A stretch of 64,000 bases of DNA from Pseudomonadota bacterium (GCA_027320085.1 DAHVLZ010000036.1:1-64000), one strand, 5' to 3'. Counted from the first letter of the stretch, positions 794 through 16,416 are shown. The notes: a model not told the origin generated them from the sequence alone. Made by a program: numbers and translations.

Positions 794-802
794 CTAGAAC
801 GG
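794..802. repeat. Left att-like direct repeat CTAGAACGG
   Basis: Identical to 16408-16416 (reverse complement CCG TTC TAG = ssb Pro-Phe-stop). Confidence 0.75.
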
Positions 803-983
803 TTGTGCACACACAAAACGAGTCGACAAACGCCAAGAATCAAAACAACACATTTTATATTAATATTTTTACTAACAAACCAACCGGGTTTTCTACTTCT
901 CCCAACAGACCCATCGATAAAGCTCCGCTTTACCGCGCCCACCGGCCGCTTTCTCGACACTTTTCACCTGATCACCGCCTGAA

Positions 984-3900
984 TCACCTCACCACTTCCA
1001 TCAACTTCCCGAAGCTGTCCACAACGTCGTACTTGACGTTCTGCGGGGCGAAGCGGCGGTTCATCTCATCGAAAAACTTCCGGGCGCATTTGATCTTGGT
1101 TTTCTCGATGTCGCGCAGCTCCATCGTTGACATGGAACCCTTGGTCTCGGCGACGAAGTAGATGTGCTTGACCGCACCCTCCTTGAAGCTGATGGCCCAG
1201 TCCGGGTTGTAGTCGCCCACCGGCGTCGGGATCAGGAAGCCGCGCGGCAGCTTAGCGTACACCACCACGTCACTGCTGGTGTCCAGCTCTTTCACGAAGG
1301 TGCGTTCGATGTTGGAGTCGGTCAGCACATAGTCGTAGATGTGCCGTTGCAGCTTATCTCCGGCCTTGCTGAAGTCCTGCTTGGTCTGCCCGGCAGTAAA
1401 GATGTCGAGGTCGAACTTGTCCTCGACCGGGTCGTAGGCCAGATGCTCAATGATGACCGTGGCCTTCTGCTCGTTGATCAGGCGTATCGCCTCGGCAATG
1501 AAGCTCTCCGGGTTGGTCTTGAACCGCGCGAATACAGCGGCGTTGAGCCCCTTGAGGATCTCGGTCACCGTACGCCGTGTCAGCTGGGTGCCTTCGGCGA
1601 GCTTACCGATCAGGTCGTACTTGACCGCCGAATGGATTGAGGCGCGGTTGGTTTCCGTCTCCGTGGCCTTCAACTCGAACGCATTGCCGCCCTTGATTCC
1701 TTCGTAGGTCACGGCGGCTGCCTGTTCGCCGTGCTGGATGGTGTACTGCAACGGGGTCACACGAAGCCCGGCATCTTTGTCGTTGAGAGTCTTAACCGCT
1801 TTCTGCACCAGTTCGTTGGAGTCGAAGTCGACGCTGTATGCCGCCTTGCGATTGATCCGATTCCAGAGCTCTTTGAACTCCTGCTTCTCGAAGTTGGCGT
1901 TGAGCGGGTTCTTCTTGGGTTTGCGGTCATCGCCAATTTCGGGCAACTGGCTCTCGCTGAAGACACTGTCAATCAGCTTGAACACCTGCTCGGCATGCGG
2001 TACCAACTCGGGGGGCAGCGCAGCCAGCGCGCCGTCTTTCTTGGCCTCGTGGTACGCGGTGGTGATGCGATCTGCGTCGTCGGTGTAGTCGTGCTTGAGC
2101 AGGTACTTGTAGATCTGCTTCGCAAGCTGCGGCGTCACCTCGACATCGCCAGACTCCGTCTTCAGCACCTTGCCGGTGAAGTAGGACTCGTCCGCCAAGC
2201 GCGGGCGCGCCGACAGCGACTCGCTGATGTCCTTCTGCAGCGCCGCGACAAAGTCCTTGTAGCTCTCGCTGGCCACCACAGTCAGCACGTTCACATCGTG
2301 CACTGTGACGGGGTGATCCATTCGGTCACCACTTTGGTTGATGGACAGCCGCAAGCCACGTCCCACCTCCTGACGGCGCGATATCGTGTTGTCACTGTGC
2401 TTGAGAGCGCAGATCACGAACACGTTCGGGTTGTCCCAGCCCTCACGCAGGGCCGAGTGGGAGAAGATGAAGCGCACCGGCTCGGCAAATGACAGCAGCC
2501 GCTCCTTGTCCTTCAGGATCAGGTCGTAGGCCTCCACGTCGTCGGAGAGACCCGCGTTCTCGCCACGCGCCGCGACCGTGGGGTCGGCCAGCCGTTTGCT
2601 CTTCTTGTCGATGGAGAAATAGCCGCTGTGAGTCTTGTCGGCAGAAATGCCTTTTAGGTACTTGATGTACGGCGTCTCATCCAGATCCAGCACCTCGTTG
2701 AGGTAGAGCTGGTATTCTTCCTCGAAGATGCGGGCGTACTCGCCTTTCTCGTCCGGTGCGCTGTAGTCGCGGTACTTAACCACTTCGTCGATGAAGTAGA
2801 GCGTGAGCACCTTCACGCCCTGTTGGAACAGCGCCTGTTCCTTATCGAAGTGCGCCTTGATGGCCTCGCGGATCTGGATACGGCGCAGCGCGGTTTCAGT
2901 GACATCACCGGTCGCATCCCCAACGGTCAGCTCAACGCCATTGGTGAAACTCAGGGTGTCGAAGTTAGCGTTGATATCGGCCACGACAAAGCCATCCCGA
3001 TACGGATCGAGCCCGTTCGACAGATCAAACAAGTTGTCGCCTTTGGAGAGTTTCCTGACCACCCGCTTGATGTTTCCGCCCGCCAGTTTCTGCTCGAACT
3101 CCACACGCGCCTCAGGCGGCTTCTTGCTCGATATCTCGATGGACTGCAGGTACAGATAACCCGCCGTTCCCGCCAGCCCCTTGACCGCGATGCCGCGTAC
3201 CGCGATCTTCTTCACCAGCTTCTGGTTGTAGGCGTCCAGCGCATCGAGGCGGTGAATCTTGTTGTGCGTAGTCTTGTGGGTGGCCGAGTAGCGCAACACC
3301 ATCAGCGCCTTGAACTCTTCCAGCGACTTCAGCGTCGCCGCGCCTTCCATCTTCTGCGGCTCATCCAGAATCAGGATGGGGCGGTTGGCGCTGATCACGT
3401 CGATGGGCTTACGCGACTGGAAATCGTCCATCACGTCATAAATGCGGCGGTTGTCAGCACCTCGCGCGGCAAAAGCCTGCACGTTGATCATCATCACGTT
3501 GATGCCCGCGTCCGACGAGAAGCTCTCCAGATGGTGCAACTGCTTGGAGTTGTAGATGAAGGAGCGCACCTTTTTGTGGTAGGTCTCCAGGAAGTGCTCG
3601 GCAGTGATTTCCAGCGACTTGGCCACGCCTTCACGGATGGCTATGCTGGGCACCACGATGATGAACTTGCTCCAGCCGTACTGCTTGTTCAGCTCGAAAA
3701 TGGTCTTGATGTAGCAGTAGGTCTTGCCGGTGCCCGTTTCCATCTCGATGTCGAGATTGATCTTGGCGACCTCGGTCTTGACCAGCGTATCTGATAGGGG
3801 CAGGTTCTGTGCTCGTTGTACGTCGCGGATGTTGGTGAGCAGGGTCGCATCAGACAGCGAAAGGTCGGCGTTCTTGAAACCAGCCTCGGAAAACAGGCTT

Positions 3901-4040
3901 TCCATCCCGCTCTTTGCTTTGCCGGGGTCGACGCGATAACGCATGGCTTCAGCGGATGCCAAGGGCTGTCCCTTGAAGCACTCGATGACCGCCTGTACCG
4001 CTGCTGTCTGGTAGCCCTGTGTTTTGAACTTCAGTTTCAT
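984..4040 (-). CDS. res: Type III restriction-modification Res subunit
   Basis: Walker [34 protein letters not shown]-terminal PD-(D/E)xK motif (YNPDW...VAETKG). Confidence 0.93.
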
Positions 4041-4063
4041 GGTCTTTTCCTAGAAACAGCGAA

Positions 4064-5113
4064 TCACAATTTCCAACGCCGAGCCGGTGGCGCCTGTTTA
4101 CACTCGGCGATCAGGACGTCGTATCGACTCGGATCGATTGCTCGACGAACCAGTTCGAAGTCGAATTTCCTGGATCCCTGCTTTGTAAAGATGAGAACAC
4201 AAGGACGGCTGCCGTATTCGAGTTCGCGGATCGACAGGCGAGCTGTAGCGTTACGGTTGAGCGTAAAAACGAGCCTGCGCGATTCCTGGGTGTCGACGTT
4301 ATTCAAGTCGAGGTTGATGCTACTTCTGACCGTCTTGCGCAGCCCAAAGAATTTCCTCGCGGCGTCCAACGGTATCTGGACCTGACGTCCTTCCTCGCTG
4401 GTCTCCCTAGGCATGACTTCGAGGATCAATCTGGAGCCCTCCGCCCCTCCAGCCGCAGGGGCCTTGGCATTGGACCTCTTGGCCGAAGCACCGCTTGTAC
4501 GCTTCGACCAAGTGAAGTCTCCGCCCAGGCCTGATGTCGCCCGTCGCAATCTGTACTTTTCCTTCTCCTTCGCATAACTCTTGATAAGCGCTGCTGTGAC
4601 GAGCTCGCTGGCCTTGTGGATTTCGTCATGCCATGTTTGAAGATTGACATCGACATGGGCCAACGTCGTGACGGTTGCGAACTCAATATTATTCCTCAGA
4701 CCGTCTTCGGTCAGGTTGTTGCTCCCTGCCAGAATGGTGCTACCAGCCTTTCCGATGAACCAGATGACCTTGGGATGGAAGATGCCTGTGTAGTGGCGCA
4801 TCAGGCGAACATCGATTCCTTCGTTGTGCATGGCCTCGATGGCCGCTACGTCAGTCAGTGCATGGTCGGTTCCGATGTAGGCCGTGACGGCTCGGCCGTC
4901 CCGCGCCTTGCACCAACTTAGGATGCTCTTTCGAAGCCGCTTCCATCCCGATTCGGTGGCTGCATAGAAGTACAGCCTCAGCTGACGGGACTGTTTGTCG
5001 GCCGCGCACACTTGCTCGGCAGCAGCAAGAAAGTCGGTTACGGCCCATGCTGCGGTCCGCATGGTCGGTGCCGTCCGCGACAGGGCTGCCGATGTCTTAG
5101 GGACTTGGCTCAC
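4064..5113 (-). CDS. Phospholipase D-family (HxK) restriction-endonuclease-like protein with putative C-terminal DNA-binding domain
   Basis: IFHPKVIWF...ILAGSNNLT..GL..NIE PLD nuclease motif; GTG start overlaps the mod stop (GTGA). Confidence 0.8.
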   Translation of the reverse strand: MSQVPKTSAALSRTAPTMRTAAWAVTDFLAAAEQVCAADKQSRQLRLYFYAATESGWKRLRKSILSWCKARDGRAVTAYIGTDHALTDVAAIEAMHNEGIDVRLMRHYTGIFHPKVIWFIGKAGSTILAGSNNLTEDGLRNNIEFATVTTLAHVDVNLQTWHDEIHKASELVTAALIKSYAKEKEKYRLRRATSGLGGDFTWSKRTSGASAKRSNAKAPAAGGAEGSRLILEVMPRETSEEGRQVQIPLDAARKFFGLRKTVRSSINLDLNNVDTQESRRLVFTLNRNATARLSIRELEYGSRPCVLIFTKQGSRKFDFELVRRAIDPSRYDVLIAECKQAPPARRWKL

Positions 5114-16279: not shown

Positions 16280-16294
16280 TCCCTACAAACCCAA

Positions 16295-16314
16295 CATGTA
16301 TTTAACTATACATG
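16295..16314. promoter_or_regulatory. Palindrome CATGTAT-N6-ATACATG upstream of the recombinase operon (operator or recombinase site)
   Basis: Perfect 7-bp inverted repeat with 6-bp spacer, about 15 bp upstream of the first ATG. Confidence 0.5.
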
Positions 16315-16339
16315 ATCTTTTTCGACAATAAAAACAGGC

Positions 16340-16372
16340 AAAAAAAGAAGGCCCCGTAAAAACAGGGCCTTC
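16340..16372 (-). terminator. Rho-independent terminator downstream of ssb
   Basis: GAAGGCCC/GGGCCTTC stem followed by a T7 tract on the minus strand. Confidence 0.8.
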
Positions 16373-16407
16373 GGCGATCTTGCTCAACACTGATAAATAT
16401 GTGTTGT

Positions 16408-16416
16408 CTAGAACGG
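16408..16416. repeat. Right att-like direct repeat CTAGAACGG (ssb 3' end)
   Basis: Identical to 794-802. Confidence 0.75.

What the first reader, a model, noticed from the sequence alone, without database searches (positions are those of the whole stretch)
794..16416. 15.6-kb three-recombinase island integrated precisely at the ssb stop codon
Seen: the last 9 bp of ssb (CCGTTCTAG) recur exactly about 180 bp beyond res. Between the copies lie three tyrosine-recombinase genes, a 141-aa gene and the cargo. Known: this four-gene layout matches GInt-type (ginABCD) islands and differs from RIT, Tn554 and gamma-mobile-trio elements. Inference: this is an ssb-targeting GInt-like element that leaves the essential gene intact. 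It has no conjugation or phage genes, so it would need another vehicle to spread.
Basis: partly seen in the sequence, partly recalled or inferred. Interest (0 to 1): 0.75.

Follow-up and report, generated by a model that had tools for sequence, protein, structure and literature searches.

The report
Known GInt island at ssb end
This is a 15.6-kb mobile island of an already described kind (a GInt) sitting in the last bases of the essential ssb gene and carrying anti-phage genes; it is real and sharply bounded, but one of its four mobility genes is broken and the island type and its ssb target are already in print.

Summary
CTAGAACGG occurs only at 794-802 and 16408-16416. Metagenome contigs from two runs join 793 to 16408, skipping exactly 15,614 bases. 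Between the repeats lie three tyrosine-recombinase genes, a 141-aa gene, five defence genes and an AT-rich tail.

The GInt reading is supported, but it is not new. Bardaji et al. 2017 already describe ssb-end GInts with the same CCGTTCT core and restriction-modification cargo. Of 29 related loci, 22 sit directly behind ssb. The right-end motif TGTGCACAA+CCGTTCT recurs in relatives. Plasmid-borne ssb genes are hit too.

- ginA carries a 131-nt frameshifting deletion, seen in contigs of all four runs. The copy is probably non-autonomous.
- Island-free relatives join ssb to other sequences. The DNA beyond the distal repeat is itself an older insertion.
- In the probable source sample, flank depth is about 30 against about 17 for the island. 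About half the population seems to lack it.

Verdict: new member of a known kind. Interest is low to moderate.

The parts
794..802 (-). Distal direct repeat (attR core); read on the ssb strand it is CCGTTCTAG
   Evidence: Exact second copy of the 9-mer. It is the left edge of the 15,614-base skip in contigs of X1 and X3.
803..811 (-). Conserved right-end motif of the island; read on the island's strand it is TGTGCACAA, directly before the core
   Evidence: The same motif lies next to CCGTTCT or CCNTTYT in L058. It was found in 4 of 5 related genomes searched by pattern, with 0 control hits.
803..983 (-). Short non-coding, AT-rich 3' end module of the island
   Evidence: GC is 0.448 for 803-983 and 0.258 for 835-900, against 0.571 for the whole island. 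It shares stretches with the right end of L066. No ORF family, promoter or terminator match was found.
984..4040 (-). Cargo: type III restriction endonuclease (Res), 1018 aa
   Evidence: PADLOC REase_III 1107.9 bits. Pfam ResIII plus RE_endonuc. NCBIfam PRK15483 gives 389 bits, below its cut-off of 564.
4064..5113 (-). Cargo: PLD-like (HKD) protein, 349 aa, overlapping mod by 4 bases
   Evidence: Pfam PLDc_2 E 7.6e-06, 26.2 bits, just under the cut-off of 27. Weak PADLOC DrmC, ZacB and PDC-M27B matches.
5110..7044 (-). Cargo: type III methyltransferase (Mod), 644 aa
   Evidence: PADLOC MTase_III 712.8 bits. Pfam N6_N4_Mtase E 3.2e-26.
7077..7751 (-). Cargo: DUF4391 protein, 224 aa
   Evidence: Pfam DUF4391 E 5.8e-56. 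No PADLOC family.
7748..11041 (-). Cargo: HKD-Snf2 helicase, 1097 aa; starts 14 bases after the ginD stop
   Evidence: PADLOC C3a139 'HKD+Snf2' 409.7 bits. Pfam SNF2-rel_dom and Helicase_C. Gap computed.
11056..11481 (-). ginD-like gene, 141 aa, all-helical small protein
   Evidence: No Pfam, NCBIfam or PADLOC family. 68-94% identical to the fourth gene of 15 related operons and 32% to the Pseudomonas one. The AlphaFold model has five helices, mean pLDDT 78.5.
11486..13537 (-). ginC-like gene, 683 aa, large recombinase-like protein with a Cys-rich C-terminal part
   Evidence: Weak Pfam Phage_integrase match, E 9.9e-07, residues 455-504. 94% identical to L035 and 30% to L063. Alignment. It is the only copy in the genome at E<=0.001.
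13515..15086 (-). ginB-like gene, 523 aa
   Evidence: NCBIfam NF041502 593.5 bits against a cut-off of 350. 959 relatives at E<=0.001 among the candidates scored, mostly 523-527 aa.
15076..16279 (-). ginA-like gene, broken: a 131-nt internal deletion (junction between 15832 and 15831) removes about 44 codons and shifts the frame
   Evidence: Two overlapping frames. DNA alignment with L035, L036 and L039 shows a 131-column gap. The 18 homologues examined give single ORFs of 436-475 aa. Protein alignment. Contigs of X1-X4 cover the place with 0 gaps.
16280..16407 (-). Left end of the island: conserved ACAACAC...GTGTTGA inverted repeat right after the core, then a terminator-like hairpin (16347-16372), then the AT-rich stretch upstream of ginA
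   Evidence: Hairpin with a T run found. The same layout appears in the 22 related junctions printed and the consensus. GC is 0.383.
16408..16416 (-). Proximal direct repeat (attL core), which is the last two codons (Pro-Phe) and TAG stop of ssb
   Evidence: It is the right edge of the skip in contigs.
16408..16872 (-). ssb, the target gene; the product ends ...EDDIPF as in island-free relatives, but with stop TAG instead of their TGA
   Evidence: Pfam SSB E 1.9e-38. Relatives G001, G002 and G003 end in TTCTGA.
1..793 (.). Left flank. This is not the ancestral ssb neighbour but part of a second, older insertion (a segment that relative G001 keeps between aspS and purL). Bases 1-599 recur at the end of contig C9.

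Best explanation
The segment 803-16407 is a GInt, a 'genomic island with three integrases' also called a Tn6571-family element. It belongs to the sub-group that targets the 3' end of ssb.

Inferred mechanism, by analogy with the experiments of Bardaji et al. 2017:
- A circular form carried the joined ends TGTGCACAA-CCGTTCTAG-ACAACAC.
- Its tyrosine recombinases recombined it with the CCGTTCT sequence that encodes the conserved Pro-Phe end of SSB.
- The crossover lies inside that core. ssb therefore keeps its reading frame but now takes its stop codon (TAG) and a terminator hairpin from the island's left end.
- The gin operon and the cargo are all co-directional with ssb.

The cargo is a five-gene defence block: HKD-Snf2 helicase, DUF4391, type III Mod, a PLD-like protein and type III Res. 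This is a payload type already reported for GInts.

This copy has since lost 131 nt inside ginA. All four gin genes were needed for excision and integration in the tested GInts, so this copy is most likely unable to move by itself. It persists as a defence island that is present in only part of the population.

What is shown:
- the anatomy
- the exact boundaries
- the presence/absence polymorphism
- the recurrence of target and end motifs in relatives
- the ginA lesion

What is inferred:
- the recombination mechanism
- the loss of autonomy
- the defence function
For: Gene order and families:
- Three recombinase-type genes (about 441 aa if unbroken, then 523 and 683 aa) plus a 141-aa gene, then cargo 14 bp later.

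Related loci:
- All four proteins align full-length with 15-18 related operons, including a Pseudomonas rhodesiae one at 30-40% identity.
- 22 of 29 related loci have ssb directly upstream.
- 20 of those 22 end ssb in TTCTAG followed by a conserved left end and hairpin.
- The three island-free genus relatives end ssb in TTCTGA.

Right-end motif TGTGCACAA+CCNTTYT:
- It occurs in the window, in L058, and in 4 of 5 genomes searched, with 0 control hits.
- It lies 11-18 kb from ssb. For L035 and L039 this assumes the match lies on the same contig as the locus.
- At these right ends the core ends in TGA in 4 of 7 cases and TAG in 3 of 7. This fits a crossover inside CCGTTCT.

Empty-site join and depth:
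- Join 793->16408 in 1 contig of X1 (depth 16) and 1 contig of X3 (depth 3).
- In X1 the flank contigs have depth 30.1 and the island contigs 16-18.7.

ginA lesion. It is present in contigs of 4 of 4 runs.

Published precedent:
- Bardaji et al. 2017, Results and Table S3: ssb-end GInts with L/R repeats such as CCGTTCTAAT / CCGTTTTGAAT and GTGCCGTTCT. attL overlaps the gene end without altering the product. R-M cargo is common. All four genes are essential.
- Hochhauser et al. 2023, passages: GInts carry defence systems.

Horizontal origin:
- NF041502 scores above its cut-off in only 1 of 61 genomes of the host's relatives, namely G000 itself (this tally includes the unpublished genome G052).
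- GC is 0.571 in the island against 0.643 in the right flank.
Against: - No reference GinABCD sequence from P. stutzeri DSM 4166 or P. syringae 1448A was available. Homology to the founding members is therefore indirect, through a Pseudomonas operon at 30-40% and by eye to a GinA stretch printed in the supplement.
- Bardaji et al. report that GinC lacks the first catalytic arginine. In my alignment the GinC-like protein keeps an invariant R in a 'P.R.SEv' box. I did not align it to a reference recombinase.
- No circular junction was listed among the joints.
- The empty-site contig has only 27 letters on its shorter side. The tool warns that sides under 30 are often spurious in metagenomes.
- X1 may be the sample the genome was assembled from, so it is not independent.
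- Both repeat copies carry TAG, whereas the simple model predicts the host's own stop at the distal copy.
- Island-free relatives do not have the left-flank sequence next to ssb.
Confidence: 0.85

Rival explanations
1. The island is still active. The empty-site allele seen in the metagenome would be the product of ongoing excision in this population, either because a truncated GinA suffices or because GinA is supplied in trans.
For: The flanks of the occupied and empty forms are identical over the shared contigs: 0 other letters in X1 records 1 and 8, at depth 30.1 against about 17 for the island. This points to a very recent gain or loss. The empty allele keeps CTA (stop TAG), which in this family normally comes from the island. 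Bardaji et al. saw restored attB sites shifted toward the island's sequence.
Against: ginA lacks about 44 codons and is frameshifted in contigs of all 4 runs, and ginA mutants neither excised nor integrated in Bardaji et al.. The genome's only other GInt-like pair (contig C30) is 23-29% identical and itself damaged. No other GinC homologue was found at E<=0.001. No circle junction was listed. The flank contigs stop at 796 and start at 16412 and the joining contig is 61 letters long. By my inference from k=31 graph logic, the empty allele differs from both repeat copies at the fourth letter of the 9-mer, which a simple attL x attR product would not do (inference, letters not seen).
Confidence: 0.1
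2. The 9-mer pair is coincidental. The real island would be the whole low-GC tract of about 24 kb between ssb and the conserved GH92 gene, brought in by some other route.
For: A 9-mer pair alone is weak (1 of 100 shuffles gave 2 matches). Island-free relatives join ssb to other DNA: G002 has 66 bp and then the GH92 gene, and G003 has 544 bp. The DNA beyond 794 (window 1-793 plus contig C9 1-8164) is also of lower GC (0.53-0.62) and accessory.
Against: Contigs skip exactly 793->16408. The motif TGTGCACAA next to the distal copy is the conserved right end of related islands. The AT-rich module lies just inside the distal copy. The extra DNA is better read as a separate, older insertion.
Confidence: 0.03
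3. It belongs to another multi-recombinase element class (SE, RIT, Tn554-like or gamma-mobile-trio), not to the GInts.
For: All of these classes carry two or three tyrosine recombinases and lack transfer genes. SEs also have four core genes and, like some GInts, may leave no empty site.
Against: The order here is small recombinase, 523-aa recombinase, 683-aa protein, small protein. This matches ginA-B-C-D and not intA-tfp-intB-srap. There is a fourth conserved gene and there are direct repeats, unlike the three-gene RIT layout (as described). GmtY scores 25.4 and 15.2 bits against a cut-off of 340. The ssb CCGTTCT target equals that of the published GInts.
Confidence: 0.02

Closest known systems
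ssb-targeting GInts of Bardaji et al. 2017 (Sci Rep 7:46254; e.g. P. syringae pv. syringae UMAF0158, pv. myricae AZ84488, Ralstonia solanacearum PSI07, Shewanella baltica BA175, Opitutus terrae PB90)
   Same: Four-gene module at one end, cargo directly after the fourth gene, short AT-rich far end and flanking direct repeats. Insertion is in the last bases of ssb with the product unchanged. The repeat core is CCGTTCT (Table S3: CCGTTCTAAT / CCGTTTTGAAT, GTGCCGTTCT). Restriction-modification cargo and no transfer genes.
   Different: The host is an uncultured mine-drainage gammaproteobacterium. The repeats are a perfect 9-mer, not an imperfect 10-17-mer. ginA is broken. The GinC-like protein seems to keep the first catalytic arginine.
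The Xanthomonadales/Lysobacterales GInt lineage found here (loci L035-L062), and plasmid copies such as Xanthomonas citri pCuR and an E. coli IncN plasmid
   Same: GinB is 62-89% identical, GinC 58-94% and GinD 69-91%. Same ssb junction, left-end inverted repeat and hairpin, and TGTGCACAA right end. pCuR has ssb-int-int-hyp-hyp followed by type I R-M, and the IncN plasmid has the same module followed by avs4.
   Different: The cargo differs even in the closest relative: L035 gave no tblastn match to any of the five cargo proteins in the 7.5 kb held after its ginD. The 18 homologues examined give an uninterrupted ginA ORF.
[quoted passage not shown] 2023 (PLoS Genet 19:e1010694)
   Same: A three-integrase module plus a small gene carrying anti-phage systems, with no known transfer genes (passages read).
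   Different: Different host and cargo. The paper's main text does not mention ssb (0 occurrences).
[quoted passage not shown] 2023 (Mob DNA 14:7)
   Same: Four conserved core genes including a recombinase-fold protein and a small protein. Site-specific and non-mobilizable.
   Different: The SE gene order is intA-tfp-intB-srap. The paper finds that SE and GInt proteins form separate clusters. The order and the ssb target here fit the GInts.

Membership tests
GInt (ginABCD islands) | Operon of three tyrosine-recombinase-type genes followed by a small fourth gene, at one end of the island | tested here: met
   Pfam Phage_integrase matches all three. The fourth gene is conserved in 16 related operons. 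Caveat: ginA is broken in this copy.
GInt (ginABCD islands) | [quoted passage not shown] | tested here: met
   There is a 14-base gap between the ginD stop (11056) and the Snf2 start (11041). The criterion is from Bardaji et al., Results.
GInt (ginABCD islands) | Short, poorly conserved 3' end with AT-rich stretches | tested here: met
   GC is 0.448 for 803-983 and 0.258 for 835-900. There is partial similarity to the right end of L066.
GInt (ginABCD islands) | Site-specific insertion flanked by short direct (often imperfect) repeats | tested here: met
   9-bp exact repeats. Contigs join exactly across them. The same site is used in 22 of 29 related loci.
GInt (ginABCD islands) | For the ssb sub-group: attL overlaps the end of ssb without altering the product, with core CCGTTCT | tested here: met
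   SSB ends ...DDIPF in the window and in island-free relatives. The core equals the Table S3 entries.
GInt (ginABCD islands) | Catalytic RHRHY residues in GinA and GinB; first arginine missing in GinC | tested here: inconclusive
   By eye in the alignments, the GinA C-terminal part and GinB keep R, H-x-x-R-H-type and Y positions. The GinC-like protein keeps an invariant R in 'P.R.SEv', which does not fit 'first arginine missing'. No reference recombinase was aligned.
GInt (ginABCD islands) | Sequence homology to the founding GinA-D (P. stutzeri DSM 4166 / P. syringae 1448A) | not tested
Indirect evidence only: 30-40% identity across all four proteins to a Pseudomonas rhodesiae operon (L063), and 33-39% for GinC to E. 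coli, Klebsiella and Pasteurella plasmid copies.
GInt (ginABCD islands) | Excision as a circle and re-integration, requiring all four genes | not testable with these tools
   Contigs show an empty-site form but no circle junction, and contigs drop rare variants. ginA is broken, so this copy may fail this test.
Strand-biased circularizing integrative elements (SE) | Core gene order intA - tfp (no RHRY) - intB (large) - srap | tested here: not met
   The largest, least recombinase-like protein is third here, not second. The order is as described.
Recombinase-in-trio (RIT) elements | Three recombinases only (RitA, RitB, RitC) | tested here: not met
   A conserved fourth gene is present and the boundaries are direct repeats. 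The RIT protein set is as tabulated.
Gamma-mobile-trio | GmtY-family recombinase (NCBIfam NF040693, cut-off 340 bits) | tested here: not met
   The best scores are 25.4 bits (ginA part) and 15.2 bits (ginB).
Type III restriction-modification (cargo) | Mod methyltransferase plus Res helicase-nuclease | tested here: met
   PADLOC MTase_III 712.8 bits and REase_III 1107.9 bits. Activity was not tested.

The most novel reading that the evidence does not exclude
The ssb 3' end in this mine-drainage population may be a serially re-used docking site caught in mid-history.

- The island-free allele already carries the island-type TAG stop. By inference from contig ends, it also carries a synonymous change in the core.
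- It is joined to a 1.6-kb piece of native chromosome. Relative G001 keeps that piece between aspS and purL, and it is missing from that place in this genome.
- This would mean that GInts leave a lasting stop-codon footprint in an essential gene.
- It would also mean that a GInt, or its remnant, has relocated host DNA to its docking site. That would be a snapshot of how these islands capture cargo.
Probability: 0.15. Interest if true: 0.5.

Novelty: new member of a known kind. Interest (0 to 1): 0.25.

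Why it matters
It adds little to what is known about GInts. The element type, its ssb target, its core sequence and its habit of carrying defence genes are all published, and this scan has met ssb-end GInts in at least three other genomes.

Three modest points of value remain:
- It is a clean natural example in an uncultured acid-mine-drainage bacterium. Occupied and empty alleles co-exist in one sample, which gives exact boundaries without cultivation.
- It illustrates how the island replaces the stop codon and terminator of an essential gene. 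TAG occurs in 20 of 22 occupied sites, against TGA in the three unoccupied genus relatives.
- It is a case of a GInt decaying into a fixed defence island through loss of ginA.

Tried and rejected
1. Empty site in relatives. The three genus relatives G001-G003 lack the island, but each has different DNA after ssb, and none has the window's left flank there. The predicted empty-site sequence could not be confirmed this way.

2. Public metagenome contigs. A scan with a 36-nt unbroken stretch of the left flank gave 0 matches.

3. Circle junction. No 'goes back' joint was listed. One further joint row was not shown, and contigs drop rare forms, so this says nothing either way.

4. Runs X2 and X4 showed no 793->16408 join. 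In X4, contigs run unbroken across both junctions (records 24 and 30). In X2, only the ssb-side junction is shown crossed (record 14).

5. GinD fold. The model is helical, but Foldseek against the PDB gave nothing better than E 0.88. No fold assignment is made.

6. Link to the founding Pseudomonas GInts. I looked for this via L063's insertion site. L063 sits behind traU in an F-type transfer region, not at the ABC-transporter site, so it does not tie this lineage to the founders.

7. Remnant of an older GInt left end in window 600-793. Only 9-10-nt chance matches were found.

8. Older right junction on contig C9. CCGTTGTGA at 1716-1724 and TTCCGTTTGG near 1645 are candidates. The one-mismatch pattern count equals chance (19 found against 18.3 expected), and the alignment with G001 does not single either out. 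Left open.

9. Literature on DUF4391. In the search, none of the 10 papers listed contained the term. That search does not show the term is absent from the library.

10. Promoter scan of 16200-16500 and of 700-1100. No sigma-70-type match was found.

Full report
**1. The observation**

CTAGAACGG occurs exactly twice in the window, at 794-802 and 16408-16416. Shuffles give a mean of 0.17 matches, and 1 of 100 shuffles reached two. The 9-mer pair alone is therefore weak evidence. The right copy is the last two codons (Pro-Phe) and the TAG stop of ssb (16408..16872, minus strand; Pfam SSB E 1.9e-38).

Everything between the copies is on the minus strand, co-directional with ssb:
- a ginA-like recombinase gene in two frames (15076..16279)
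- a 523-aa recombinase (13515..15086; NCBIfam NF041502, 593.5 bits against a cut-off of 350)
- a 683-aa recombinase-like protein (11486..13537)
- a 141-aa gene (11056..11481)
- an HKD-Snf2 helicase, starting 14 bases later
- a DUF4391 protein, a type III Mod, a PLD-like protein and a type III Res
- 181 non-coding bases of GC 0.448, falling to 0.258 at 835-900

No conjugation or phage family was hit. The island has GC 0.571 against 0.643 in the right flank.

**2. Are the boundaries real?**

Three independent lines say yes.

(a) Metagenome contigs. I laid Logan contigs of four mine-drainage metagenome runs from one study on window 1-17500. X1 may be the source of the assembly.
- One contig in X1 (depth 16) and one in X3 (depth 3) join 793 to 16408. 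They skip 15,614 bases, and 9 letters fit either side.
- X2 and X4 show no such join. In X4, contigs run straight through both junctions.
- In X1 the flank contigs (184-796, and 16412 onward) have depth 30.1, while the island contigs have 16-18.7. Roughly half of that population therefore seems to lack the island.
- Caveats: the shorter side of the join is 27 letters, and the tool warns about sides under 30. Contig depth is also a coarse measure.

(b) Related loci. An alignment of GinB relatives retrieved 29 loci from species-representative genomes, mostly Xanthomonadales/Lysobacterales.
- 22 of the 29 have ssb directly upstream of ginA.
- Of the other seven, five are cut by a contig end inside ginB or less than 400 bp before ginA (L037, L060, L044, L050, L052).
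- One (L057) has another element's right end plus CCGTTCTAG directly before the GInt left end. This is a tandem array.
- One (L063, Pseudomonas rhodesiae, 30-40% identity) sits behind traU of an F-type transfer region.
- In 20 of the 22 ssb junctions the gene ends in TTCTAG. A conserved (A/C)(C/G)AACAC...GTGTTGA inverted repeat follows, then a GC-rich hairpin with a T run. The window has the same layout, with the hairpin at 16347-16372.

(c) The right end. The distal repeat of the window is preceded, on the island's strand, by TGTGCACAA.
- The same motif next to CCGTTCT was found in L058, 11.2 kb from its ssb.
- A pattern search found it in 4 of 5 further genomes, with 0 hits for the reversed control pattern.
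- The sites lie about 12.1 to 18 kb from ssb. For L035 and L039 this assumes the match lies on the same contig.
- One of these right ends (L067) is followed at once by another GInt left end, which is again a tandem array.

**3. Where the crossover lies**

The three island-free relatives of the same genus end ssb in TTCTGA. Occupied sites mostly read TAG at the ssb side (20 of 22). The far repeat reads TGA in 4 of 7 right ends and TAG in 3 of 7, the window included.

This is what a crossover inside CCGTTCT predicts. The ssb side receives the island's AG plus the island's terminator, and the far side keeps the host's GA. The SSB protein is unchanged (...DDIPF). In the window both copies read TAG, so the site that this GInt entered probably already carried TAG.

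The X1 and X3 flank contigs stop at 796 and the X1 right-flank contig starts at 16412, and the joining contig spans 27+34 = 61 letters. With 31-letter words this is the signature of a single differing letter. I therefore infer that the empty allele keeps CTA (TAG) but differs from both repeats at the fourth letter, probably TTT for TTC. This is an inference; I did not see the letters. If it is right, the empty allele is not a simple excision product of this copy.

**4. The broken ginA**

The ginA region reads in two frames. Aligned with L035, L036 and L039, the window lacks 131 consecutive nucleotides. The junction lies between 15832 and 15831. The deletion removes about 44 codons and shifts the frame.

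The 18 homologues examined give single ORFs of 436-475 aa, and the protein alignment shows the missing segment. Contigs of all four runs cover the place without gaps. The deletion is therefore real and not a flaw of this assembly.

In Bardaji et al. 2017 each of ginA, B, C and D was needed for excision and for integration (Results read). The genome has no second GinC homologue at E<=0.001. Its only other GInt-like genes are a pair on contig C30 that is 23-29% identical. That GinA-like gene lacks the box-I region, and the GinB-like gene is split over two frames. I therefore consider this copy non-autonomous.

**5. What lies beyond the distal repeat**

The window is the start of contig C7. Its first 599 bases recur, 98-99% identical but with an extra 385 bases, at the end of contig C9. 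X1's flank contig begins exactly at that indel (184). C9 therefore very probably continues the window to the left as an alternative haplotype.

C9 carries the following:
- the rest of a 1.6-kb segment (a small exported protein gene and a 237-aa ORF)
- a glyoxalase gene whose 5' end is homologous to the DNA downstream of ssb in G001
- a zeta-toxin gene
- a Sel1-repeat gene
- the GH92 gene, which lies 66 bp after ssb in G002 and 544 bp after it in G003

The 1.6-kb segment sits between aspS and purL in G001 and is missing from that place in this genome.

The explanation is a second, older insertion at the same hotspot, not a chance 9-mer. I could not define that older element's ends.

**6. Comparison with what is known**

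Bardaji et al. 2017 (abstract, Results and supplementary Table S3 read) define GInts by four features:
- ginABCD at one end
- cargo starting at the ginD stop
- a short AT-rich 3' end
- flanking direct imperfect repeats

[quoted passage not shown] The repeats they list include CCGTTCTAAT / CCGTTTTGAAT (Ralstonia), CCGTTTTAATT / CCTTTTTAATT (Shewanella) and GTGCCGTTCT (Opitutus). They also note that restriction-modification systems are frequent cargo.

Two later papers add context:
- Idola/Nonaka et al. 2023 (passages read) separate GInts from SEs by gene order and sequence, and count 409 ginC-ginD blocks in gammaproteobacterial replicons.
- Hochhauser et al. 2023 (passages read) list GInts (the Tn6571 family) among defence-carrying islands of E. 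coli.

A tblastn of the GinC-like protein against plasmids found 80 records, 37 of them typed conjugative. I examined two of these records:
- Xanthomonas citri pCuR has ssb-integrase-integrase-hypothetical-hypothetical followed by a type I R-M system.
- An E. coli IncN plasmid has the same module followed by avs4.

Earlier notes of this scan record ssb-end GInts in at least three other genomes. I used them as leads only.

**7. Membership**

Met:
- four-gene order
- cargo position
- AT-rich end
- direct repeats
- ssb-end target with the published core

Inconclusive: the catalytic-residue pattern. The GinC-like protein seems to keep the first arginine.

Not tested: direct homology to the founding GinA-D, because no reference sequences were held.

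Not testable here: circle formation.

Not met: SE gene order, the RIT three-gene layout, and the GmtY family (25.4 bits against a cut-off of 340).

**8. Cargo**

The type III Mod and Res match strongly. The HKD-Snf2 helicase matches a PADLOC candidate family (C3a139, 409.7 bits). DUF4391 and the PLD-like protein have no assigned defence role.

The closest relative of the gin module (L035; GinB 89%, GinC 94%, GinD 91%) shows no match to this cargo in the 7.5 kb held after its ginD. The cargo is therefore exchanged faster than the module.

NF041502 scores above its cut-off in only 1 of 61 genomes of the host's relatives, namely this genome (the tally includes the unpublished genome G052). This fits horizontal acquisition.

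**9. Verdict**

The GInt reading is supported, but the element type, its target and its cargo type are published, so this is a new member of a known kind.

This copy has three particular features:
- the ginA deletion
- the co-existing empty allele
- the compound nature of the ssb hotspot

Interest: 0.25.

Noticed in passing
G000 contig C30, locus L079 4520-8172: A second, divergent GInt-like pair lies here: a 380-aa GinA-like ORF (23% identical to an intact GinA, box-I region missing) and a 455-aa GinB-like ORF (29%, with its C-terminal part in another frame). It starts about 90 bases after a recJ-like DHH gene that stops right after its DHH motif. The contig ends inside the element. It may be a GInt that split recJ.
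   Followed up: partly
window 1-693 and G000 contig C9 1-1585 (locus L034): A 1.6-kb native segment (a small exported protein gene plus a 237-aa ORF) lies between aspS and purL in relative G001. It is missing from that place in this genome (contig C1) and sits next to the ssb hotspot instead. How it moved is unknown.
   Followed up: partly
window 184/185 versus G000 contig C9 417-800: A 385-base insertion/deletion polymorphism lies inside the small exported protein gene region. A metagenome contig of X1 begins exactly at 184.
   Followed up: no
G000 contig C9 (L034) 1728-7921: Further low-GC accessory DNA (0.53-0.60) lies between the ssb hotspot and the conserved GH92 gene. It holds a glyoxalase gene, two unknown ORFs, a zeta-toxin-family kinase gene and an 891-aa protein with 19 Sel1 repeats.
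   Followed up: partly
L067 (1501 onward, minus strand) and L057 8480-8520: Tandem arrays: a GInt right end or another island's right end, then CCGTT(C/T)TAG, is followed at once by a GInt left end. The ssb site is therefore re-used while occupied.
   Followed up: partly
L063 3231-13914 (Pseudomonas rhodesiae): A gin operon 30-40% identical to the window's sits directly behind traC, a peptidase S26 (signal peptidase) gene, trbC and traU of an F-type transfer system. It is carried inside a conjugative element and not at ssb.
   Followed up: partly
window 13515-13800 and 11600-11900 (C-terminal parts of the GinB- and GinC-like proteins): Both large proteins end in conserved Cys-rich stretches (GTCGNYGFC...CYTC.hF in GinB; CvHDYaM.PCqK.ReCmtCkEh.C in GinC). 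These are invariant or nearly so in 16 operons and look like metal-binding modules. I did not find this feature in the passages I read.
   Followed up: no
window 4064-11041: The type III Mod and Res genes are embedded in a tightly packed five-gene block with an HKD-Snf2 helicase, DUF4391 and a PLD-like protein (4-base overlaps at 7748-7751 and 5110-5113). PADLOC names only the R-M pair and a candidate 'HKD+Snf2' family. L036 and L038 carry a distant Snf2 relative (28-35% identity) at the same position.
   Followed up: no
window 673-716; G000 C8 118794-118823; G001 C49 38575-38618: A 30-44-base motif (TTTGTCAAGCAACGGAGGATCC...) upstream of the small exported protein gene recurs at about 90% identity at other places in this genome and in G001. 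It may be a shared regulatory site.
   Followed up: no
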